NCBI GenBank assembly: GCA_039817645.1
Contig: JBCBVM010000004.1
Coordinates: 45,013-109,012 of the forward strand
From: Pseudomonadota bacterium
Lineage (GTDB): Bacteria > Pseudomonadota > Alphaproteobacteria > Rhodobacterales > Rhodobacteraceae
DNA length: 64,000 nt
Direction of reading: 5' to 3'
Notes under the pieces: generated by a model
Told to the model about the DNA's origin: nothing
Database searches by the model: none
The model's input: the letters and a program-made list of their open reading frames with translations, nothing else
Position numbers and translations under genes: made by a program
Shown here: positions 7,724 to 18,355 of the stretch, piece by piece
Position numbering within the stretch: position 1 is the first letter of the stretch
Layout: every line of letters starts with the position of its first letter

Positions 7724-8893
7724 CTATGCCAGAAGGCCGGGGTCCGCGCCCATTTCAAGGCCAGGGAAGATCAGAGTGCCAAGGGTCGTCCGATCCACCC
7801 CAAACATGCCGTGGAGCGCCCAGGCCGCATAGCGCCGCACATCCGCCGTGGGCATCAAATCGCGCCGTTGATAAAGCGCGGCCTCGCCCAAGCCCGGCCA
7901 ATCGCCCCAAACTTGACCGCCGTTCAAGGCACCGCCCGCCAGGATCATCGTGCCACCCGTCCCATGATCCGTACCGCGGGTGCCATTGACGGCCGCAGTG
8001 CGCCCGAACTCCGTCATGGCCAGAACGACCGTGTTGTCCCAATCGGGCCCAAGATCATCGCGCAGACGCAACAGCCCCGTGCCCAAACGCGACAAGGCGC
8101 GCTTGATCTGGTTGGGTTGATTGCGGTGGGTGTCCCACCCCATCACCGACAAGGCCGCGATGCGCGCATCTTGACGCAACTGGGTGGCGGCAAAGGCGAA
8201 CAGCGCCTCGGCCCCGCGTTTGCGCCCATTGGGCCCTGCCGCACTGTCGGCGGCAAGCTCCAGCGCCTCCTCCGCGGTCTCGCGAAACAGGGGGTCGTCA
8301 TGGTAGATATGGAGCAGCAGGTCCTGGGTCGCGGGGGCAAGTTCCAACTGCGCGTCGGGGGCCCAGCTTGAATAATCCGCCGCACCCCGCAACAGCAGCA
8401 TCTCATCGCGGCCAATGGCAAACGCGGTCCGCCCTTCGGCGCCAGGCAGCGTGGTCAGCAAGCGGTTCAGCCACCCATCCCGGTTCGACAGGGGCGGGAC
8501 TTGCCCCGCCGTCCCGGCCTCCAGAATGTCTTGGCCGTCGAAATGGCTCCGCTTGTCGCGGTATGGCGTGCTGACGGCCTGGGCAAAGCCCAACTGGCCC
8601 GCCTGCCACAGCGGCAGAAGCGGCGCCAAATGGGGGGTCAGCGCGTGGAACCCCGTCAGGTCCAGCGCCCCGGCACCGGGCCCAATGTCGAAACTTGGCC
8701 GCAGGGCCGCCAGCCCCGGGTCGCCATAGGGTTGCAAAACGTCCAGCCCATCCATGCCGCCGCGCAAAATCACCACCACAAGGCGTTTATCACTGGGGAG
8801 GGCCGCAAAGGCCATGGGCGTGACGGCGGGCGCGGCCGCCAGGGAACATCCCATGGTGGCCAGAAAGCGGCGTCGGTCGAGCATCAGGGACAT
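7724..8893 (-). CDS. DUF1501 domain protein (Tat-secreted, sulfatase/phosphatase-like fold)
   Basis: Twin-arginine signal (MSLMLDRRRFLATMGCSLAAAPA). Conserved partner of the upstream DUF1800 gene. Confidence 0.75.
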   Translation of the reverse strand: MSLMLDRRRFLATMGCSLAAAPAVTPMAFAALPSDKRLVVVILRGGMDGLDVLQPYGDPGLAALRPSFDIGPGAGALDLTGFHALTPHLAPLLPLWQAGQLGFAQAVSTPYRDKRSHFDGQDILEAGTAGQVPPLSNRDGWLNRLLTTLPGAEGRTAFAIGRDEMLLLRGAADYSSWAPDAQLELAPATQDLLLHIYHDDPLFRETAEEALELAADSAAGPNGRKRGAEALFAFAATQLRQDARIAALSVMGWDTHRNQPNQIKRALSRLGTGLLRLRDDLGPDWDNTVVLAMTEFGRTAAVNGTRGTDHGTGGTMILAGGALNGGQVWGDWPGLGEAALYQRRDLMPTADVRRYAAWALHGMFGVDRTTLGTLIFPGLEMGADPGLLA

Positions 8894-8899
8894 GGCACC

Positions 8900-10255
8900 C
8901 TACCTCCGTTGAAAATCTGGCGCGGACAGCACCAGGCCGATGCCCGCCGCCCGATCTTCGGCGGCTTGGGCTGCGAAGCGGGTGCGCGGGCTGGCCAGAT
9001 CCGCCAGGGCCACGTCCACAAAGGCGCGCGGGTCTGGCAGGTCCGGCACCTCGCTCGGCGCGCGCATGGCCCATTCAATCCGTGCCGAGAGGCCTTGGGG
9101 CGTGATCCAGGCCCGCGCGTCTTCGGGCCAGCCATCGGGTCCCGGCGGGTGCTGCCACCGCTGCCCCATCAGGCTGAGGGGACGGAAAAAGGCGTCGCGG
9201 ATCGTGCGAATACCCGCGCCCTCAAGGCCGTCCCCAATGCCCAGGGCCCGCCCGGCAGCCGCAATGAACTCAAACGGCGGCCGCACTTTGACAAGGTCCT
9301 TCGACCAGGCCGCCGGATGGTCCAGCAACGCGGCATAGACGGCCATCAGGTCGCCCTCCGTCTCGGCCCACCGCGCGACCATACTGGCCACCAGATCAGG
9401 CTCTGGCGTGTCGCTAACGAAATGCACCGCCAATTTGCGACAGATGTGATTTGCCGTCTCCGGGTGAACCGCCAGGTCCCGCAAGACGGCGCGGATATGC
9501 TCCGGATCGGCAGGGCCACCCCCGTAGGAGCGTCCCAGCACCTCCTCCGGTCCCGGCTCCGCCCGGTTCGGCTGAAACGTCTTCTGCCCGGCTTTTGTGA
9601 TGGACAGCCCGCTCAACAATTCGGCCAGCTGCCGGACATCGCTCTGGCCGTAAGCGGCGCCCACGCCCAAGGTGTGCAGTTCCAGCAATTCGCGCGCGAG
9701 GTTCTCATTCAGACCGCGCCCCCGCCGCCCCTGCGGCGAGTTTGGACCCGTGGACCCACGCTGATCCAGATAGGCGACCATGGCGGGGTGCGTGACGGCG
9801 GCAGTCAAAAGATCCTCAAAGCGCCCCGCGATGTGTGGCCGGATCGCATCCTCGTGGTAGCCAGCCACCGTGCGCCGCAGGAACCCCTGCCCGTTGGCCA
9901 CCGCGAAATGATCGGCCCAAAACCAGGCGAGGCGTTCGCGGAACCCATCTTCCGTCCCCATGGCCCGGGCAAAGGCGCGCCCCAGATCGGCATGGTGCGC
10001 CTCGGTCATGGCACGGTTATGGGCGCGGAAGGCATCTTCGGCCGGTTGACCCCCGTCCTTGCGCGCACGACGCAAGCGCACCCAGGCCACAGCATTCCCG
10101 ATTTTCTGATCCCATCCCGGTTGGGGATAGGCACGGGCGATGCGATCCGGCCCACCCAGGCGATACAACATCTCGGCCACGTCGCTTGGCGGCGCGACAC
10201 TCGGCGATAGGCCCGTCCCAAACCGGATGGCGGCAAGGGTTGGATCGAAACTCAT
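8900..10255 (-). CDS. DUF1800 domain protein
   Basis: FDPTLAAIRFGTGLSP N-terminus is typical of DUF1800. Lies 6 nt upstream of DUF1501 on the same strand. Confidence 0.7.
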   Translation of the reverse strand: MSFDPTLAAIRFGTGLSPSVAPPSDVAEMLYRLGGPDRIARAYPQPGWDQKIGNAVAWVRLRRARKDGGQPAEDAFRAHNRAMTEAHHADLGRAFARAMGTEDGFRERLAWFWADHFAVANGQGFLRRTVAGYHEDAIRPHIAGRFEDLLTAAVTHPAMVAYLDQRGSTGPNSPQGRRGRGLNENLARELLELHTLGVGAAYGQSDVRQLAELLSGLSITKAGQKTFQPNRAEPGPEEVLGRSYGGGPADPEHIRAVLRDLAVHPETANHICRKLAVHFVSDTPEPDLVASMVARWAETEGDLMAVYAALLDHPAAWSKDLVKVRPPFEFIAAAGRALGIGDGLEGAGIRTIRDAFFRPLSLMGQRWQHPPGPDGWPEDARAWITPQGLSARIEWAMRAPSEVPDLPDPRAFVDVALADLASPRTRFAAQAAEDRAAGIGLVLSAPDFQRR

Positions 10256-10365
10256 GGCGTGATGGCCGGTTGGGTCATGTCCAACAGATAACACCGCCAC
10301 ACGCCATTTGAATGGGTATGTGGCGCGTTCTGTCGGGGGCCGGCAGAATTATGTTCTGCGACGGC

Positions 10366-12138
10366 TCACTCGGTCGGCATTTTGCGCAAACCCAATTCCG
10401 CCAACTGTCCGGCCAAAGGCTCCGACGGGGCGTCCATCATCAGGTCTTCGGCCCGCTGGTTCATGGGGAACAACATGACTTCGCGGATGTTCGCCTCGTC
10501 CGCCAACAACATGACGATCCGGTCGATGCCCGCCGCACACCCGCCGTGGGGCGGGGCGCCGTATTGGAACGCCTTGACCATGCCACCAAACCGCTTGCGC
10601 ACCTCGTCCTCGCCGTAACCGGCCAGTTCGAAGGCTTTGAACATGATTTCGGGCCGGTGGTTTCGGATCGCGCCAGAGATCAGTTCATACCCGTTACAGG
10701 CGAGGTCATACTGGTAGCCCAGCACGCTCAGCGGATCACCTTCCAGCGCCGCCATCCCGCCTTGGGGCATGGAGAACGGGTTGTGGCTGAAGTCGATCTT
10801 CCCCTCGTCATCTTGCTCATACATCGGGAAATCGACGATCCAAGCAAAGGCGAACCGGTCGGTATCGGTCAGGCCCAACTCGTCCCCGATAACGGTGCGG
10901 GCACGGCCCGCGACGGCCTCGAAATCACTGGCCTTGCCGCCAAGGAAAAAGGCCGCGTCGCCCACGCCCAAGCCCAACTGTGCGCGGATCGCCTCCGTCC
11001 GCTCCGGCCCGATATTCTTGGCCAAGGGACCTGCGGCTTCCATGCCGTCGCCCTGATCCCGCCAGAAAATATACCCCATCCCGGGCAAACCCTGTTCCTG
11101 CGCGAACTTGTTCATCCGGTCGCAGAATTTGCGGCTGCCACCGGTGGGCGCGGGGATGGCGCGGATCTCGGTTCCGGCCTTTTCAAGCAGGCTGGCGAAG
11201 ATGGCAAAGCCAGAGCCGCGGAAATGCTCGGACACGTCCTGCATCTTGATCGGGTTGCGCAGGTCGGGCTTGTCTGTTCCGTACATCAGCGCGGCGTCGC
11301 GATAGCTGATCTGCGGCCACTCCGCGTCCACTTTGCGCCCCCCGCCGAACTCCTCGAAAATGCCCTGCATCACCGGCTGAATAGTCGCAAAAACATCGTC
11401 TTGCGTGACGAAGCTCATCTCCATGTCCAACTGATAAAAGTCGGTCGGAGAGCGGTCGGCACGGGGGTCTTCATCGCGGAAGCATGGGGCGATCTGAAAG
11501 TACTTATCGAACCCAGACACCATCAAAAGCTGTTTGAACTGCTGCGGCGCTTGCGGCAGCGCATAGACTTTACCCGGGTGAAGACGGCTGGGCACGATGA
11601 AATCGCGCGCGCCTTCCGGGCTACTGGCGGTGATGATGGGCGTTTGGAATTCATTAAAATCCATGTCCCACATACGGTTACGGATCGACCTTACCACGTT
11701 CGAGCGTAAAATCATGTTCCGCTGCATCACGTCCCGGCGCAGATCAAGGAACCGGTATTTCAGCCGCGTTTCTTCGGGGTATTCTTGGTCGCCAAACACC
11801 ATCAGCGGCAGTTCATCCGCGGCGCCCAACACCTCCAGATCGCGGACAAACACTTCCACTTCACCCGTGGGAATCTTTGCGTTTACAAGGCTTTCGTCCC
11901 GGGCCTTCACGTTACCGTCAATGCGGATGCACCATTCGGAGCGAACCTTCTCAACCTCGTGAAAGACGGGGCTGTCGGGGTCACATAGGACCTGAGTGAC
12001 GCCATAATGGTCCCGCAGGTCGATGAACAACACGCCCCCATGGTCGCGGATGCGGTGGACCCACCCAGACAGCCGGACAGTCTCGCCCACATCCGCCTTG
12101 GTCAACGCGGCACAGGTTTTGGTGCGAAAGGCATGCAT
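10366..12138 (-). CDS. aspS: aspartate--tRNA ligase
   Basis: [46 protein letters not shown] plus class II aaRS motifs. Confidence 0.95.
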
Positions 12139-12227
12139 AGGAGCGCTCCGGGTTGCGGACAGACGGTCGCGTCGGTTGACCGTCTGGACCGCATGAAGTC
12201 AACCCCACGCATGCCGGAAAACGGGCG

Positions 12228-12920
12228 TTACTCCGCCGCGACCGACGGCGCCGGCCCGTCGCGCAACAGGATGTCGGGGGAGAGACGCGTGACCACGTCC
12301 TCCACACCCTCCGGGAAGGGGCGCCCTTCGGCCGCCCAACCGGGGAAGCCGATGACGCGGCACCCAGCGTCCAACGCGGCTTGCGCGCTTTCGGGCGTGT
12401 CTTCGATCACCAAAGTTCTGTCCAGTTCCACATCCAATGTCGTGGCGCCCCTGTGGAAGATGTCGGGCGCGGGTTTGCCAGTCGCAACCTGGCTGCGGTC
12501 CCCGATCCAGTCGAAATCGGTGGCCTGCACATCGGGCGCCAAGCCCGCCAGAGTCAGATCCACCTGGGGCCGCCCCGTGCTGGTGCAGAACCCGGTGGCC
12601 AGGCCCCGCGCCTTCGCCGCCCGCAACAGGTCCTGCACACCGGCGCGCGGGGCCAACCCCTGGCGCCGAACGAGGCCTGCAAAAATTTCCGTCTTGGCCC
12701 GATGGAGCGCATCCACATCCACCGTATCGCCGCTCCGCTCTGCAAAAGCAGCGATGCGCGCCTTGCCGCCGGGCTGGGTCAGCATCCGGCGATAGCTGTC
12801 GCGATCCCACACCCAGTCCAGCCCCGCCGTGCGGAAGGCCAGATTGAACGCGCGACGCTGGATGTCAGATGTTTCAGCCAGTGTCCCGATGGAACCGAAG
12901 AAAAGGGCAGTTAGGGGCAT
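12228..12920 (-). CDS. CbbY-like HAD-superfamily protein lacking the motif-I Asp nucleophiles
   Basis: GTLAETSDIQRRAFNLAF...GLDWVWDRDSYRRMLTQPGGKARIAAF...HRAKTEIF closely parallels CbbY as recalled from memory. Motif I is GSIGT instead of DxDGT. Start set at the internal ATG (M204 of the track ORF). Confidence 0.75.
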   Translation of the reverse strand: MPLTALFFGSIGTLAETSDIQRRAFNLAFRTAGLDWVWDRDSYRRMLTQPGGKARIAAFAERSGDTVDVDALHRAKTEIFAGLVRRQGLAPRAGVQDLLRAAKARGLATGFCTSTGRPQVDLTLAGLAPDVQATDFDWIGDRSQVATGKPAPDIFHRGATTLDVELDRTLVIEDTPESAQAALDAGCRVIGFPGWAAEGRPFPEGVEDVVTRLSPDILLRDGPAPSVAAE

Positions 12921-13066
12921 TCTCAAACCTCGCGCGTGCCGGAATGCCTGGTCGCCCACGGCCAAGATGCGGCGCGCGAGGCCAGGGAACCGGGCGTTGG
13001 ATAACGGTCGTACCTGAGAGATACGATCCGACCCCGCCTTTGGTTCCCGAGCTGCGCGAGATTTCG

Positions 13067-13744
13067 CTATTCGGCTGCGACCGGTTCTTTCTGCATCAGC
13101 GCGGCGCCCGCCTCGGGGGCCACGCGCGTTCCGGCCGGTAAGTGCCAGCCCGCGCCCATACCCCCCGTCAGCACCACCGATGGCACGCCCACCGCACTTG
13201 CGGCGCGGGCTGCGTAGGGCGTGTCGACCACCGCCAGAATGCGATCTGGCTGCACCTGCATCGAACACAGGGCCAGGTCGAAAACATCTGCCAGGCTCCG
13301 CTCTCGCTTGACCATGTCGCTGTCCCCAATCCAGGAGAATTCGCGCGGGGAAAGGGTGGGCGCCATGGCATCCATCACGGCGTAGACCTCGCTGGCAGAC
13401 CGGCGTGCGCATAGGGCCACGGGCACGTTCCGCGACTTGGCAGCATCCAGCAGGTCCAACACCCCGGTCTTTGGCGCCACCTTGGCCGAGCGGAGCAGGT
13501 CGCGCGCGATGTCGCGCTTCGTTTGCCACAACGCTGCCACGTCGACGCTGTCGCCCGCATCAACCGCGTAGGCCGCGATCCGCGCGGCATCATCCTCAAG
13601 GGTTTGCAGGCGCTTGTAGCGCGACGGCTCCCAAACCCAGTCGAGATCGGCCCGATGGAACGCCAAGTTGAAAGCGCGTCGGTCCAGATCCTCCAAATCC
13701 GCCACCGCTCCGACGGATGCAAATACGACTGCTGCGTAAGACAT
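13067..13744 (-). CDS. CbbY-like HAD-superfamily paralog (more degenerate)
   Basis: VVFASVGAVADLEDLDRRAFNLAF...DLDWVWEPSRYKRL; a tandem paralog of the previous gene. GGGAGG lies 6 nt upstream of the ATG. Confidence 0.7.
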   Translation of the reverse strand: MSYAAVVFASVGAVADLEDLDRRAFNLAFHRADLDWVWEPSRYKRLQTLEDDAARIAAYAVDAGDSVDVAALWQTKRDIARDLLRSAKVAPKTGVLDLLDAAKSRNVPVALCARRSASEVYAVMDAMAPTLSPREFSWIGDSDMVKRERSLADVFDLALCSMQVQPDRILAVVDTPYAARAASAVGVPSVVLTGGMGAGWHLPAGTRVAPEAGAALMQKEPVAAE

Positions 13745-14010: not shown

Positions 14011-17000
14011 ATGCCCAAACGTGACGATATCAAATCGATCATGATCATCGGCGCGGGCCCCATCGTCATTGGGCAAGCTTGCGAGTTCGACTATTCCGGC
14101 GCCCAGGCGTGTAAGGCCCTGCGGGAAGAAGGCTACCGGGTGATCCTGGTGAACTCCAACCCCGCGACGATCATGACGGACCCGGGGCTGGCGGACGCCA
14201 CATATATCGAGCCCATCACCCCCGAAGTTGTCGCCAAAATCATCGAGAAGGAGCGGCCAGACGCATTGCTGCCCACCATGGGCGGCCAGACCGGGCTGAA
14301 CACGTCCCTGGCGTTGGACGATATGGGCGTGCTGGACAAGTTCGACGTCGAACTAATCGGCGCAAAACGTGCCGCCATCGAGATGGCCGAGGATCGCAAG
14401 CTTTTCCGGGAGGCCATGGACCGATTGGGCATCGAGAACCCCAAGGCCACCATCGTGGACGCGCCCAAGCGAGACAACGGCACCTTTGACATCGCCAAGG
14501 GCATGGAAAACGCCATGGCCGCCTTGGAGTTCGTGGGCCTGCCAGCCATCATTCGGCCGGCCTTCACCTTGGGCGGCACCGGCGGTGGCGTGGCCTATAA
14601 CCGCGCCGACTATGAACGGATCTGCCGGACGGGGCTTGAAGCCTCGCCCATGGCGCAAATCCTGGTGGATGAAAGCCTGCTGGGCTGGAAAGAATTCGAG
14701 ATGGAGGTGGTGCGGGACAAAGCCGACAACGCCATCATCGTCTGCGCCATCGAAAACGTGGACCCCATGGGGGTGCATACGGGCGACAGTATCACCGTGG
14801 CCCCCGCCCTGACCCTCACTGACAAAGAGTACCAGTTGATGCGCACCCATAGCATCAATGTCCTGCGGGAGATCGGGGTGGAAACGGGCGGGTCCAACGT
14901 GCAATGGGCCGTGAATCCGGCAGATGGCCGGATGGTCGTGATCGAAATGAACCCGCGGGTGTCACGCTCCTCGGCGCTGGCGTCCAAAGCGACGGGTTTC
15001 CCCATTGCCAAGATCGCGGCGAAGCTGGCCGTGGGCTATACGCTGGATGAGTTGGACAACGACATCACCAAGGTGACGCCCGCGTCCTTTGAGCCGACGA
15101 TCGACTACGTCGTCACCAAGATCCCGAAATTCGCATTCGAGAAATTCCCGGGGTCCGAGCCGTTCTTGACCACGGCCATGAAATCCGTGGGCGAGGCCAT
15201 GTCCATCGGGCGCACCATCCATGAGAGCCTGCAAAAGGCGCTGGCCTCCATGGAATCCGGTCTGACCGGGTTCGATGAGATCGAGATCCCTGGCCTCACC
15301 TCCCCCCATGGCGCGTCAGGTGGTGCCGGTGCCGCAAGCGTCCCCCCCTCCGAGGCGGAGGGGCGCCAGGTGGAAGGGCCGACCCCCGCCGCCATGGCCG
15401 CGATCAAGGCCGCCCTTTCGAAACAAACTCCGGACCGCCTGCGGGTCATCGCCCAGGCCATGCGCGAAGGGCTCGGTGATGACGCCATCCACGCCGTGAC
15501 CAAGTTCGACCCCTGGTTCCTCGCCCGTATCCGCGAAATCATCGAGGCCGAAGCCCATGTCCGCAAGGACGGCCTGCCCGTGGAAGAAGACGGCCTCCGC
15601 CGCCTCAAGATGATGGGGTTCACCGACGCGCGCCTGGCCAAGCTGACCGGGCGGACGGAAGACAATGTCCGCCGCGCCCGCCTGAACCTGGGCGTCACCG
15701 CGCAGTTCAAGCGCATCGACACCTGCGCGGCCGAGTTCGAAGCCCAGACGCCCTATATGTATTCCACCTATGAGGCCCCCGTCATGGGGGAGCCGGAATG
15801 CGAAAGCCGCCCGTCCGAGGCCACCAAAGTCGTCATCCTGGGCGGCGGCCCCAACCGCATCGGCCAAGGGATCGAGTTCGACTATTGCTGCTGCCACGCC
15901 TGTTTCGCGCTGTCGGACGCGGGCTATGAGACGATCATGGTCAACTGCAACCCCGAGACGGTAAGCACGGATTACGACACGTCCGACCGCCTCTACTTCG
16001 AGCCGCTGACGTTCGAGCATGTGATGGAGATCCTGCGGGTGGAGCAGGAGAACGGCACCCTCCACGGGGTCATCGTTCAGTTCGGGGGGCAAACGCCACT
16101 GAAACTGGCCAACGCGCTGCATGATGCGGGCATTCCAATCCTGGGCACGACGCCCGATGCCATCGACCTGGCCGAAGACCGCGAACGCTTTTCGGCGCTG
16201 GTCACGCAACTTGGCCTGAAGCAGCCGAAGAACGCCATCGCGTCATCTGACGAGGAGGCCCGGCTGCGCGCCGAGGAGTTGGGCTACCCCTTGGTGATAC
16301 GACCCTCTTACGTTCTGGGTGGCCGCGCCATGGAGATCGTGCGCGACACCGCGCAACTTGAACGCTACATCCGCGACGCCGTGGTCGTCTCCGGCGACAG
16401 TCCGGTCCTGCTGGACAGCTATCTTTCGGGCGCCATCGAAGTGGATGTGGACGCCCTCTCCGACGGGACCGACGTCCATGTGGCCGGCATCATGCAGCAT
16501 ATCGAAGAGGCGGGGGTTCATTCCGGCGACAGCGCCTGCTGCCTTCCGCCCCACTCCCTCTCCCAAGACGTGCTCGACATGATCCGCCGCCAGACCGAGG
16601 CGCTGGCCAAAGCCTTGCGCGTCGTGGGCCTGATGAACGTCCAATTCGCGGTAAAGGACGAAGACGTCTACCTGATCGAAGTGAACCCCCGCGCGTCCCG
16701 GACGGTGCCCTTCGTGGCCAAGGCCGTCGATAGCGCCATCGCGTCCATCGCAGCCCGCCTCATGGCCGGAGAGCCGCTTTCGAACTTCCCGCTGCGCGAT
16801 CCCTACCCCGCCGATGCCGAGATTGCCCATGTGCCCATGGGCGACACCATGATGCTGTCCCACCCGGACACGCCCTGGTTTTCCGTGAAGGAGGCGGTGT
16901 TGCCCTTTGCCCGCTTCCCCGGTGTCGACACGCTTCTGGGGCCAGAAATGCGCTCCACCGGCGAAGTCATGGGATGGGACCGGTCCTTCCCGCGTGCGTT

Positions 17001-17427
17001 CCTCAAGGCGCAGATGGGCGCGGGCACGGTACTGCCGCTGGCGGGGACGGCGTTCCTGAGCATCAAGAACGACGACAAAACCGCCCAACTGGCCGAGACG
17101 GCGGCCATCCTGGTGGACCAAGGCTTCTCGATCCTCGCCACGTCGGGCACCGCGGAATTTCTGGCGCGCCACGGCATCGAAAGTCGCCATGTGAACAAGG
17201 CCTACGAGGGCGGCCGCACCGTCGTTGATGTCATGAAAGACGGGGAGGTGCAGCTGGTCATGAACACCACCGAAGGCGCCCAAGCCGTGGAGGACAGCCG
17301 CTCCATGCGCAACGTGGCGCTCATGGACCGCATCCCATATTACACGACCCTGGCCGGGGCCCATGCCGCCGCACTCGCCATGCAGGCCCGCGCCGAGGGC
17401 GATGTCGAGGTCCGCAGCCTTCAATAA
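14011..17427 (+). CDS. carB: carbamoyl-phosphate synthase large subunit
   Basis: [57 protein letters not shown] and a duplicated ATP-grasp architecture. Start at the internal ATG. Confidence 0.95.
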
Positions 17428-17563: not shown

Positions 17564-18355
17564 ATGGCGACGATCAATGGCAACGACAATGATAACGCCT
17601 TGCGCGGGACCGCGCAGGGCGATCAGATCTTTGGGTTGGATGGCGATGACACGATTTCCGGCTTGGGCGGCAACGACCGACTCTTCGGGTCCGACGGCAA
17701 GGACTTTATGTTGGGGTCCCTCGGACAAGACTTTCTGTCCGGCGGCGATGACGACGACACCCTCAACGGCGGCACGGGCGACGACACCGTCTCTGGCGGC
17801 GACGGCGATGACGACCTGCGCGGCGGCCAAGGCGATGACACCCTCAACGCGGGCGACGGCCAAGACCGCGTTTTCGGCAATGAGGGCGACGATTTCATTC
17901 TGGGCGGCGAAGGGGCCGACATTTTGGGCGGCGGCGCAGGCGATGACCGCTTGAACGGGGGCGAAGACGATGACCGACTGTTCGGCGGCTTCGGTGAGGA
18001 CACGCTTCTGGGGGGCAACGGCGATGACACGATGTTCGGCGCCGTGGGCGATGACCGCCTGGTCGGCGGCGACGGGGACGACGTTCTCAACGGCGGTGGC
18101 GGTCGCGATGTCCTGACCGGCGGCGATGGCAGCGACACCTTCGTCTTCCAAAGTGGGGCCGACCGGATCACCGATTTCGACCGTCGCGATGACACGATCG
18201 ACCTGACAAGCGTCGCGGGCCTATCCACTTGGTCCGACGTCATGGATGCCGCCAGCGACACAAGCGGCGGCGTGGTCCTGTCTTTCACCGAAGGCCAATT
18301 GACCATCACCGGGCTGAGCATGGCCGGTTTGCAGGAAGATGATTTCTTGTTCTAA
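17564..18355 (+). CDS. RTX-type calcium-binding repeat protein (hemolysin-type nonapeptide repeats)
   Basis: About 20 tandem GGxGxDxLx repeats. C-terminal DTFVF...ADRITDF...DTIDLT is typical of type I secretion substrates. GGAGAG SD upstream. Confidence 0.8.
   Translation: MATINGNDNDNALRGTAQGDQIFGLDGDDTISGLGGNDRLFGSDGKDFMLGSLGQDFLSGGDDDDTLNGGTGDDTVSGGDGDDDLRGGQGDDTLNAGDGQDRVFGNEGDDFILGGEGADILGGGAGDDRLNGGEDDDRLFGGFGEDTLLGGNGDDTMFGAVGDDRLVGGDGDDVLNGGGGRDVLTGGDGSDTFVFQSGADRITDFDRRDDTIDLTSVAGLSTWSDVMDAASDTSGGVVLSFTEGQLTITGLSMAGLQEDDFLF

What the first reader, a model, noticed from the sequence alone, without database searches (positions are those of the whole stretch)
12228..13744. Tandem CbbY-like HAD paralogs that have lost the catalytic DxD nucleophile motif
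Both proteins align along their length with CbbY-type HAD phosphatases as I recall them (...GTLAET..RRAFN..F...DW.WDR..YR..L...GGK.RIA.F...HRAKTE.F). Motif I reads FFGSIGTL in the first gene and VFASVGAV in the second, instead of hhhDxDGT; both Asp are replaced. The first gene keeps motifs II-IV (TST, GKPAPD, IEDTPE); the second is more degenerate. With the nucleophile gone they cannot be phosphotransferases. They may be pseudo-enzymes, for example sugar-bisphosphate binders or regulators. They sit between aspS and carB, not in a cbb operon.
Basis: partly seen in the sequence, partly recalled or inferred. Interest (0 to 1): 0.6.

Follow-up and report, generated by a model that had tools for sequence, protein, structure and literature searches.

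The report
Asp-less CbbY-like HAD proteins, duplicated
Two neighbouring genes encode relatives of the sugar-bisphosphate phosphatase CbbY that lack the two catalytic aspartates; one belongs to a large, conserved and so far undescribed clade that keeps the rest of the pocket, and the other is a degraded local copy of it.

Summary
Gene A (12228-12920, minus strand, 230 aa) and gene B (13067-13744, minus strand, 225 aa) are full-length CbbY-like HAD proteins, 38% identical to each other. They read FFGSIGTL and VFASVGAV where CbbY has LFDVDGTL.

The loss in A is not a local decay. Of the 150 nearest cluster representatives in 1.84 billion proteins, 142 have Gly at the nucleophile position and only 7 have DxD. 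At least 530 species genomes carry this type.

Exactly five positions switch between the two clades: D8G, V9S, D10I, E17S and H20Q (RsCbbY numbering). These remove the nucleophile, the acid/base and its helper His. Thirty-one other conserved positions are shared, including the phosphate, Mg and distal-anion ligands T115, K149, E173, D174 and R55.

A is therefore most likely a non-hydrolysing ligand binder. B is a lineage-specific duplicate that has also lost motifs II-IV; it may be decaying or may have a new role.

Outside Rhodobacterales, a subset of the clade sits directly upstream of a TauD/MysI dioxygenase in mycosporine-like amino acid clusters. This matches the uncharacterised "HAD" flagged there in 2025. 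No such genes lie in this window.

The function is inferred, not shown.

The parts
12228..12920 (-). Gene A: 230-aa CbbY-like HAD protein of the Asp-less 'GxI' clade
   Evidence: ORF and start codon. Pfam HAD_2 and Hydrolase above gathering thresholds. RsCbbY E 1e-37. AF2 pLDDT 95.6 and top Foldseek hit 4uat. An identical protein, P0001, is annotated 'HAD-IA family hydrolase'.
12879..12902 (-). Motif I of A, residues 7-14 FFGSIGTL (G9 = nucleophile position, I11 = acid/base position)
   Evidence: HMMER alignment to 4uat/4uar. G9 is invariant and I11 is at least 90% conserved in the family alignment.
12576..12584 (-). Motif II of A (T113-S114-T115)
   Evidence: T115 is conserved in both the GxI and DxD clades.
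12474..12476 (-). Motif III Lys of A (K149)
   Evidence: Conserved in 92% of the GxI clade and 100% of the DxD clade.
12399..12404 (-). Motif IV of A (E173-D174)
   Evidence: Invariant in the family alignment and shared with CbbY.
13067..13744 (-). Gene B: 225-aa degenerate tandem paralogue of A
   Evidence: ORF. GGGAGG Shine-Dalgarno upstream and GC3 of 0.77. 38% identity to A. Only its own cluster was found in 5.8 billion proteins. It has lost G9, T17, G51, G52, T115, K149, P150 and E173. AF2 pLDDT 94.2, driven by the alignment.
13703..13726 (-). Motif I of B, residues 7-14 VFASVGAV (A9, V11)
   Evidence: B is the only A-x-V among the 150 representatives.
12921..13066 (-). 146-bp B-A intergenic spacer with a GAGG Shine-Dalgarno before A
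   Evidence: No promoter, terminator or Rfam match.
10366..12138 (-). aspS, downstream on the same strand (context; conserved synteny in Rhodobacterales)
   Evidence: aspS is adjacent in 33 of 91 loci.
14011..17427 (+). carB, divergently transcribed (context; conserved synteny)
   Evidence: carB is adjacent in 50 of 91 loci.

Best explanation
Gene A belongs to a widespread, conserved sister clade of the xylulose-1,5-bisphosphate phosphatase CbbY. In this clade the phosphoryl-transfer machinery was removed once, as a block. The nucleophile Asp8 became Gly. The acid/base Asp10 became Ile. Its positioning His20 became Gln. Glu17 became Ser.

The rest of the pocket stayed under purifying selection. 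This covers motif II Thr, motif III Lys, the motif IV Glu-Asp Mg site, the cap Arg55 that corresponds to the distal-phosphate Arg of beta-phosphoglucomutase, and Lys76, Trp36 and Trp38.

Such a protein cannot form the aspartyl-phosphate intermediate. It most likely acts like a natural substrate-trap version of CbbY. It would bind, without hydrolysing, a small ligand with two anionic groups (a sugar phosphate or bisphosphate, or a dicarboxylate), and serve as a binding, sensing or hand-over factor. In some phyla the partner would be the adjacent TauD/MysI dioxygenase of mycosporine-like amino acid clusters.

Gene B is a tandem duplicate of the Jannaschia-type A gene, specific to this lineage. 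It evolved fast and has also lost the Thr, Lys, Glu and Gly-Gly pocket residues, so it probably no longer binds that ligand.

Shown: homology, motif states, clade-wide conservation, and gene contexts. Inferred: absence of phosphatase activity, ligand binding, and the role.
For: Clade-wide state: G9 is invariant and I11, T115 and K149 are at least 90% conserved, with E173 and D174 invariant, in 41 diverse members. Of the 150 best representatives from the exhaustive HMMER search, 142 have Gly at the nucleophile position (137 of them G-x-I/V/L), 7 have DxD, and the first DxD appears at about E 1e-28.

530 species genomes matched a clade-specific peptide pattern containing S18 and Q21. All 89 locus proteins retain T/S115, K149, E173, D174 and R55, and 88 of 89 have Gly9.

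Exactly five clade-switch positions were found, all in motif I or the hinge, against 31 shared conserved positions. No new conserved Asp or Glu appears. The DxD representatives form one clade in the NJ tree.

The CbbY D10N mutant crystallised with XuBP bound (4uat description). This shows that an acid/base-less CbbY still holds ligand.

A TauD gene lies 0-45 bp downstream or overlapping in 9 loci, and mysA-D genes lie within 6 kb. The literature reports an uncharacterised 'HAD' co-localised with TauD in MAA clusters (PMC11888242).

For B: its best hits are Jannaschia-type proteins at 38-39% identity, while A is 53-57% identical to several of the same set. B has no orthologue. It has lost many shared positions.
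Against: No biochemical data exist for any member. The ligand is unknown.

Gene context in Rhodobacterales (carB, aspS) and in six other standalone loci is uninformative. No TauD or MAA gene is in the 64-kb window or in Rhodobacterales loci. The MAA link therefore may not transfer to A, which is only about 39-44% identical to MAA-linked members.

Strict conservation of Gly9, Ile11, Ser18 and Gln21 fits a new catalytic pocket equally well.

My prediction that members with an EDN-type motif IV would sit next to TauD failed in 3 of 3 look-ups.

Confidence: 0.55

Rival explanations
1. The GxI clade consists of active enzymes with a new chemistry that does not use the aspartate nucleophile. Examples would be a hydrolase, lyase or isomerase acting on a carboxylated or phosphorylated metabolite, possibly with a substrate carboxylate filling the space left by Gly9 at the Mg site.
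For: The replacement residues themselves are strictly conserved: G9 in all 41 aligned family members, I11 85%, S18 89%, Q21 88% of the GxI representatives. The Mg and anion ligands are retained. There is tight, sometimes overlapping, coupling to a TauD/MysI dioxygenase in biosynthetic clusters, where accessory genes are usually enzymes.
Against: No new conserved acidic or nucleophilic residue appears. Position 10 is Ser or Ala and position 18 is not invariant. I know of no precedent for HAD-fold catalysis without the motif-I Asp (own knowledge). The known bacterial precedent for an Asp-less HAD, PcrP, is non-catalytic (PMC12632274).
Confidence: 0.25
2. A works with a TauD/MysI-type Fe/2OG dioxygenase encoded elsewhere in this genome, as a substrate-presenting or stabilising subunit. 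This would be the same role as in MAA clusters.
For: The HAD-TauD gene pair is directly adjacent in 9 loci across cyanobacteria, Cytophagales, Eremiobacterota-like, Variovorax and other lineages, and sits in the same cluster in Nocardioides and Rubrobacteraceae. Octadecabacter has a PhyH-family dioxygenase 1.3 kb away. The literature notes the co-localisation.
Against: No TauD or MAA homologue is in the window or in any of about 70 Rhodobacterales loci. Most clade members are standalone. MAA-linked members group apart from A in the tree.
Confidence: 0.12
3. One reading: Rubisco-related binder or regulator of xylulose- or ribulose-1,5-bisphosphate.
For: CbbY is the closest solved relative, and the CbbY-type conserved cap residues are largely retained.
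Against: The genes are not in a cbb operon. True DxD CbbY genes on plasmids sit next to cbbX, tkt and gph, whereas the GxI-type homologue on a Roseobacter plasmid does not. No cbb genes were seen among the parts of the window that were examined. The clade is concentrated in roseobacters and marine Gammaproteobacteria, which are largely heterotrophic (the heterotrophy is own knowledge).
Confidence: 0.06
4. The genes are non-functional relics (pseudogenes in all but name).
For: For B: no orthologue anywhere searched, a long branch, loss of 11 or more of the 31 clade-conserved positions, and a sub-threshold Pfam score.
Against: For A this is excluded by conservation across at least 530 species, with invariant pocket residues. 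For B: an intact full-length ORF with no frameshift, a good Shine-Dalgarno, coding-type GC3 of 0.77 against GC2 of 0.50, a retained C-terminal VAAE tail, and identical sequence in three independent assemblies.
Confidence: 0.3

Closest known systems
CbbY, xylulose-1,5-bisphosphate phosphatase (R. sphaeroides, PDB 4uar/4uat; Arabidopsis CbbYA 4uav)
   Same: Same fold with a C1 cap. It is the best sequence hit (E 1e-37) and the best structural hit. The two share 31 conserved positions, including motifs II-IV and cap residues N26, W36, W38, G51-G52, R55, H73, K76 and R92.
   Different: Asp8, Asp10, Glu17 and His20 are replaced by Gly, Ile, Ser and Gln. Lys150 and Glu53 of CbbY are not conserved. 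The genes are not in cbb operons.
PcrP / PA2803 subfamily (NCBIfam NF053741), experimentally non-catalytic bacterial HAD
   Same: A bacterial HAD-fold protein lacking the nucleophile. It is the precedent for a HAD repurposed to a binding role (PMC12632274).
   Different: PcrP derives from phosphonatase, is confined to pseudomonads, has lost residues of all four motifs, and has a truncated cap. Here only motif I and the hinge changed, and the pocket and cap are conserved. A scores 16 bits against a cut-off of 240.
The uncharacterised 'HAD' that co-occurs with TauD/TfdA (MysI) in mycosporine-like amino acid clusters (GATOR-GC study, PMC11888242; MysI named in PMC10510106)
   Same: MAA-linked HAD genes recovered here, from Nocardioides, Rubrobacteraceae, cyanobacteria, Cytophagales and others, carry the same GSIGT/ETS/QR signature as A.
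   Different: A and its Rhodobacterales orthologues have no MAA or TauD neighbours. In the sections of that paper read here I found no mention that the 'HAD enzyme' lacks the catalytic Asp residues.
beta-Phosphoglucomutase (L. lactis, 1lvh and others)
   Same: Same HAD-IA C1-cap architecture and residue numbering (D8, D10, T16, H20, K76). It is useful as the mechanistic reference.
   Different: About 20% identity. Beta-PGM has the full catalytic set.

Membership tests
HAD superfamily (fold level) | Rossmannoid core plus C1 cap; significant match to HAD profile HMMs | tested here: met
   A scores Pfam HAD_2 50.4 and Hydrolase 51.3 bits, above gathering thresholds. AF2 pLDDT is 95.6 and Foldseek hits to CbbY and beta-PGM have probability 1.00. 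B scores 21.9 bits, just under threshold, but is 38% identical to A and is modelled with the same fold.
HAD phosphotransferases (catalytically competent) | Motif I hhhDxDx(T/V): Asp nucleophile and Asp+2 acid/base | tested here: not met
   A has G9 and I11. B has A9 and V11.
HAD phosphotransferases (catalytically competent) | Motif II Thr/Ser, motif III Lys, motif IV acidic pair | tested here: met
   A has T115, K149, E173 and D174. B has R115, R149, V173 and D174, so this is not met for B.
CbbY (XuBP phosphatase) | Closest homology to RsCbbY/AtCbbYA with conserved cap signature | tested here: met
   E 1e-37 to 4uar/4uat. 31 shared conserved positions.
CbbY (XuBP phosphatase) | Catalytic Asp8/Asp10 plus Glu17/His20 | tested here: not met
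   All four are switched clade-wide.
CbbY (XuBP phosphatase) | Encoded with cbb (Calvin cycle) genes | tested here: not met
   The neighbours are carB and aspS. DxD homologues on plasmids sit with cbbX, tkt and gph.
CbbY (XuBP phosphatase) | Selective XuBP phosphatase activity | not testable with these tools
   This needs an enzyme assay.
PA2803/PcrP non-catalytic HAD subfamily | Match to NF053741; truncated cap; phosphonatase ancestry | tested here: not met
   16.1 bits against a cut-off of 240, over 57 residues only. The full cap is modelled.
MAA-cluster 'HAD' (partner of TauD/MysI) | Same sequence clade (GSIGT...ETS.LQR signature) | tested here: met
MAA-cluster 'HAD' (partner of TauD/MysI) | Adjacency to TauD/MysI and mysA-D | tested here: not met
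   tblastn found no TauD, MysB, MysC or MysD homologue in the window or in Rhodobacterales loci.

The most novel reading that the evidence does not exclude
The GxI clade is a previously unrecognised class of HAD-fold proteins. It would have converted a sugar-bisphosphate phosphatase pocket into a non-hydrolytic metabolite-binding module, or into an Asp-independent catalyst. It would work with Fe/2OG dioxygenases such as MysI, so that the 'HAD enzyme' of mycosporine-like amino acid clusters is not a phosphatase at all. Its standalone orthologues in roseobacters and marine Gammaproteobacteria would then perform a related, still unknown binding or sensing function.
Probability: 0.3. Interest if true: 0.75.

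Novelty: new variant of a known kind. Interest (0 to 1): 0.55.

Why it matters
Hundreds of genomes annotate these proteins as 'HAD-IA family hydrolase' or 'protein CbbY'. The sequence evidence says they cannot carry out HAD phosphoryl transfer, so those annotations are misleading.

The pattern is unusually clean. Only the catalytic residues were removed and the binding pocket is conserved. That makes the clade a good natural system for studying how an enzyme becomes a binder, or acquires new chemistry.

It also gives a concrete, testable constraint on the unexplained 'HAD' gene that travels with TauD/MysI in sunscreen (mycosporine-like amino acid) gene clusters.

For this window specifically, it shows one conserved functional copy next to a fast-diverging duplicate.

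Tried and rejected
**An alternative start or upstream extension of A carrying a DxD.** Rejected. The in-frame upstream sequence has none, and the homologues share the Met start.

**B orthologues.** The word-indexed search returned only B itself. In the exhaustive search with A, B was the only A-x-V protein. No other locus had a B-like copy.

**Selection test on B from near-identical assemblies.** The contigs are 99.8-100% identical, so there is no usable variation.

**Functional inference from gene context.** Rhodobacterales synteny with carB and aspS is housekeeping. Nine further standalone contexts share nothing recurrent.

**The prediction that motif IV 'EDNxxG' marks TauD-linked members.** It failed in 3 of 3 look-ups.

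**Fusion partners.** Only one informative case was found, a TetR-HAD protein (P0161). It could be a gene-call artefact.

**Promoter, terminator and Rfam scans of 11.9-14.3 kb.** Nothing was found.

**Literature.** No paper in the library combines CbbY with HAD nucleophile loss. The residues that contact XuBP in CbbY could not be retrieved, because the Bracher et al. 2015 paper is not in the library.

**Pocket geometry.** Model coordinates are not exposed, so it was not measured.
Full report
**1. What is in the sequence**

On the minus strand between aspS (10366..12138) and the divergently transcribed carB (14011..17427) lie two ORFs.
- Gene B runs 13067..13744 and encodes 225 aa (MSYAAVVFASVGAV...).
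- Gene A lies 146 bp downstream, at 12228..12920, and encodes 230 aa (MPLTALFFGSIGTLAETS...).

Both have a Shine-Dalgarno sequence: GGGAGG before B and GAGG before A. Both show the coding-type GC pattern of the neighbouring housekeeping genes, with GC3 of 0.79 and 0.77. The same gene pair, 99.8-100% identical at the DNA level, occurs on contigs from two NCBI MAG assemblies annotated 'Pseudomonadota bacterium' and one Logan assembly.

A and B are 38% identical (E 1e-48). A passes the Pfam HAD_2 and Hydrolase thresholds. B falls just short.

**2.

The best solved relative of A is R. sphaeroides CbbY (4uar/4uat, E 1e-37, residues 4-202). The residue-by-residue alignment places FFGSIGTLAET against LFDVDGTLAET.

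An AlphaFold2 model of A is confident (pLDDT 95.6). Its best Foldseek matches in the PDB are the CbbY structures, followed by beta-phosphoglucomutases.

Gly9 therefore occupies the nucleophile position and Ile11 the acid/base position. Motif II (T113-S-T115), motif III (K149) and motif IV (E173-D174) are intact in A. B has A9 and V11 plus R115, R149 and V173. The in-frame sequence upstream of A's Met contains no alternative DxD, and the homologues begin at the same Met.

**3. For A this is a clade character, not a local loss**

The word-indexed search returned about 100 clusters. All but two of them read [FL]G[SA]IG[TV]... at motif I: P0104 is DxD and P0106 lacks the region.

The exhaustive HMMER search of 1.84 billion representatives gave 93 proteins at E ≤ 1e-30. 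Among the best 150:
- 142 have Gly at the nucleophile position, 137 of them as G-x-I/V/L;
- 7 have DxD, the first at about E 1e-28;
- the remaining one is B itself, the only A-x-V.

In an alignment of 41 diverse members the invariant columns are G9, Q21, N26, W36, W38, G51, G52, R55, G94, P150, E173 and D174. I11, T17, S18, R22, K76, R92, T115 and K149 are at least 90% conserved.

A scan of one genome per species used the clade-specific peptide [ED]TS[ED][LIM]QR[RQE]A[FY], which contains the diagnostic S18 and Q21. It found 530 confirmed loci. These are mostly Rhodobacterales: Jannaschia, Tateyamaria, Roseicyclus, Planktomarina, Yoonia and Octadecabacter. Other groups also appear: marine Gammaproteobacteria (Njordibacter, Porticoccaceae), cyanobacteria (Waterburya, Elainellales, Acaryochloridaceae), Cytophagales, Rubrobacteraceae, Variovorax and Candidatus Lustribacter. 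A Nocardioides member was seen separately.

All 89 proteins from the fetched loci keep T/S115, K149, E173, D174 and R55. Gly9 is present in 88 of 89.

**4. What exactly changed**

I compared the 142 Gly-type representatives with 8 DxD sequences (7 representatives plus RsCbbY). Exactly five positions are conserved in each clade but differ between them. In RsCbbY numbering, which matches beta-PGM numbering, they are:
- D8 to G
- V9 to S (or A)
- D10 to I
- E17 to S
- H20 to Q

Thirty-one further positions are conserved and identical in both clades.

From established beta-phosphoglucomutase enzymology (own knowledge), D8 is the nucleophile, D10 the general acid/base, and His20 with Lys76 positions D10 on cap closure. 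The change therefore removes the phosphoryl-transfer apparatus as a unit. It leaves the proximal phosphate and Mg ligands (T115, K149, E173, D174) and the cap Arg (R55, the counterpart of the distal-phosphate Arg49 of beta-PGM).

No new conserved acidic or nucleophilic residue appears. Position 10 alternates between Ser and Ala, and S18 is not invariant.

In a rough NJ tree the DxD representatives form a single clade. DxD is the ancestral state of the superfamily, so a single ancient loss is the simplest history.

**5. Gene B**

B's best BLAST hits are the Jannaschia-type members of the clade and A itself, at 37-39% identity. A is 53-57% identical to several of those orthologues. B therefore arose by duplication within this lineage and then diverged quickly.

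It has no orthologue in the protein collection or in any fetched locus. The nearest relative genome, whose A-type protein is 61% identical, has a single copy between carB and aspS.

B has lost many clade-invariant residues: G9A, T17L, S18E, Q21D, G51D, G52D, H73W, T115R, K149R, P150S and E173V. Yet it is a full-length intact ORF with a ribosome-binding site and a coding-type GC3. It also keeps the C-terminal VAAE tail, which A has as well and three of the aligned orthologues (P0004, P0023, P0060) end in -AAE. With the family alignment it is modelled in the same fold, pLDDT 94.2.

I cannot decide between early decay and a new role, for example as a partner of A.

A second, independent tandem pair exists at the same carB-aspS site in another MAG (L030). 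Both of its copies have intact GxIG motifs.

**6. Context and the one functional lead**

In Rhodobacterales the arrangement carB <-> HAD -> aspS is conserved: carB is adjacent in 50 of 91 loci and aspS in 33. That is housekeeping synteny and says little about function.

Among about 20 non-Rhodobacterales loci, plus one unclassified Pseudomonadota MAG, 11 carry a TauD-family dioxygenase. In 9 of these it lies directly downstream of the HAD gene, from an 8-bp overlap to a 45-bp gap.

Eight to ten loci also carry a DHQ-synthase-like gene, a Methyltransf_3 O-methyltransferase, a PRK06849-type ATP-grasp and a D-Ala-D-Ala-ligase-like gene. Together these are the mysA-B-C-D set for mycosporine-like amino acids.

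The literature has two relevant items.
- The TauD-type enzyme of cyanobacterial MAA clusters was named MysI and proposed to make palythines (PMC10510106).
- The GATOR-GC study reported 'HAD' and 'TauD/TfdA' as two conserved, uncharacterised genes in MAA clusters. [quoted passage not shown] In the sections I read, I found no mention that this HAD lacks the catalytic aspartates. It also reports HAD and TauD as absent from Cyanobacteriota, whereas I find the pair in four cyanobacterial MAGs.

The window and all Rhodobacterales loci lack TauD and MAA homologues. Six further proteobacterial and plasmid members are standalone, with unrelated neighbours. The MAA association is therefore real for a subset only, and it may not apply to A.

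**7. Mechanism**

The established HAD mechanism requires the motif-I Asp to form an aspartyl-phosphate. A and B therefore cannot be HAD-type phosphotransferases. This is an inference; no assay was possible.

Selection is concentrated on the former active-site pocket, unlike in PcrP/PA2803, where all motifs decayed and the cap shrank (PMC12632274). The pocket of A is therefore still in use.

The most economical reading is a natural 'substrate-trap' CbbY. It would bind, without hydrolysis, a ligand with two anionic groups. The crystallised D10N CbbY-XuBP complex shows such binding is feasible.

The main rival is Asp-independent catalysis, which explains the strict conservation of the replacement residues equally well. 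A Rubisco-linked role is unlikely given the contexts: true CbbY homologues on plasmids sit beside cbbX, tkt and gph, and the GxI-type homologue on a Roseobacter plasmid does not.

**8. Novelty and verdict**

Non-catalytic HAD-fold proteins are known. A HAD gene in MAA clusters has been noticed. I found no description of this CbbY-derived clade as systematically Asp-less with a conserved pocket, and no curated NCBIfam or Pfam model is specific to it.

I rate it a new variant of a known kind, with moderate interest. The window's own contribution is one ordinary member of that clade plus a unique degraded duplicate.

Noticed in passing
L030:4075-5623 (MAG Pseudomonadota J06613_7, between carB and aspS): An independent tandem pair of GxI-type HAD genes sits at the same carB-aspS site. 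Both copies have intact GxIG motifs and belong to different subclades, unlike the degraded B copy in the window.
   Followed up: partly
L071, L079, L082, L089 (cyanobacterial MAGs: Elainellales, Waterburya, Acaryochloridaceae), about 5.4-10.6 kb in each locus: The HAD-TauD(MysI) pair lies next to mysD (and mysA-C in L071 and L089) in cyanobacteria. [quoted passage not shown]
   Followed up: partly
P0161 (410 aa): A TetR-family regulator (TetR_N plus an SbtR-like C-terminal domain) is fused N-terminally to a GxI-type HAD domain. If it is not a gene-call artefact, it would support a ligand-sensing role.
   Followed up: no
L007:7963-9144 (Octadecabacter antarcticus 307) and L092:4471-6894: A PhyH-family Fe/2OG dioxygenase (the family of MysH) lies 1.3 kb from the Octadecabacter HAD homologue. 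A photolyase-related protein and a Fapy glycosylase lie just upstream of another standalone member. Each is a single case and may be coincidence.
   Followed up: no
window 12160-12186 (aspS-A intergenic, minus strand): A perfect 9-bp inverted repeat, CAGACGGTC-N9-GACCGTCTG, folds at -15.2 kcal/mol as RNA. It sits between the stop of A and the start of aspS, has no T-tract, and was not called as a terminator.
   Followed up: partly
window 35956-36414 and 36443-36859 (minus strand): Two adjacent small ORFs encode proteins with hydrophobic, signal-like N-terminal stretches (judged by eye; no predictor was run) and extreme poly-Asp/Glu C-terminal tails (for example DDDDDDGDDDDDD).
   Followed up: no
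window 17564-18355 (plus strand): An RTX calcium-binding nonapeptide-repeat protein (8 HemolysinCabind stretches) lies immediately downstream of carB.
   Followed up: partly
window 8900-10300 (minus) and the 8501-10210 (plus) antisense ORF: Very long spurious antisense ORFs, up to 569 aa, overlap real genes such as DUF1800 and aspS in this 65% GC sequence. A's own reading frame stays open 203 codons upstream into B. ORF length alone is not evidence of a gene here.
   Followed up: yes
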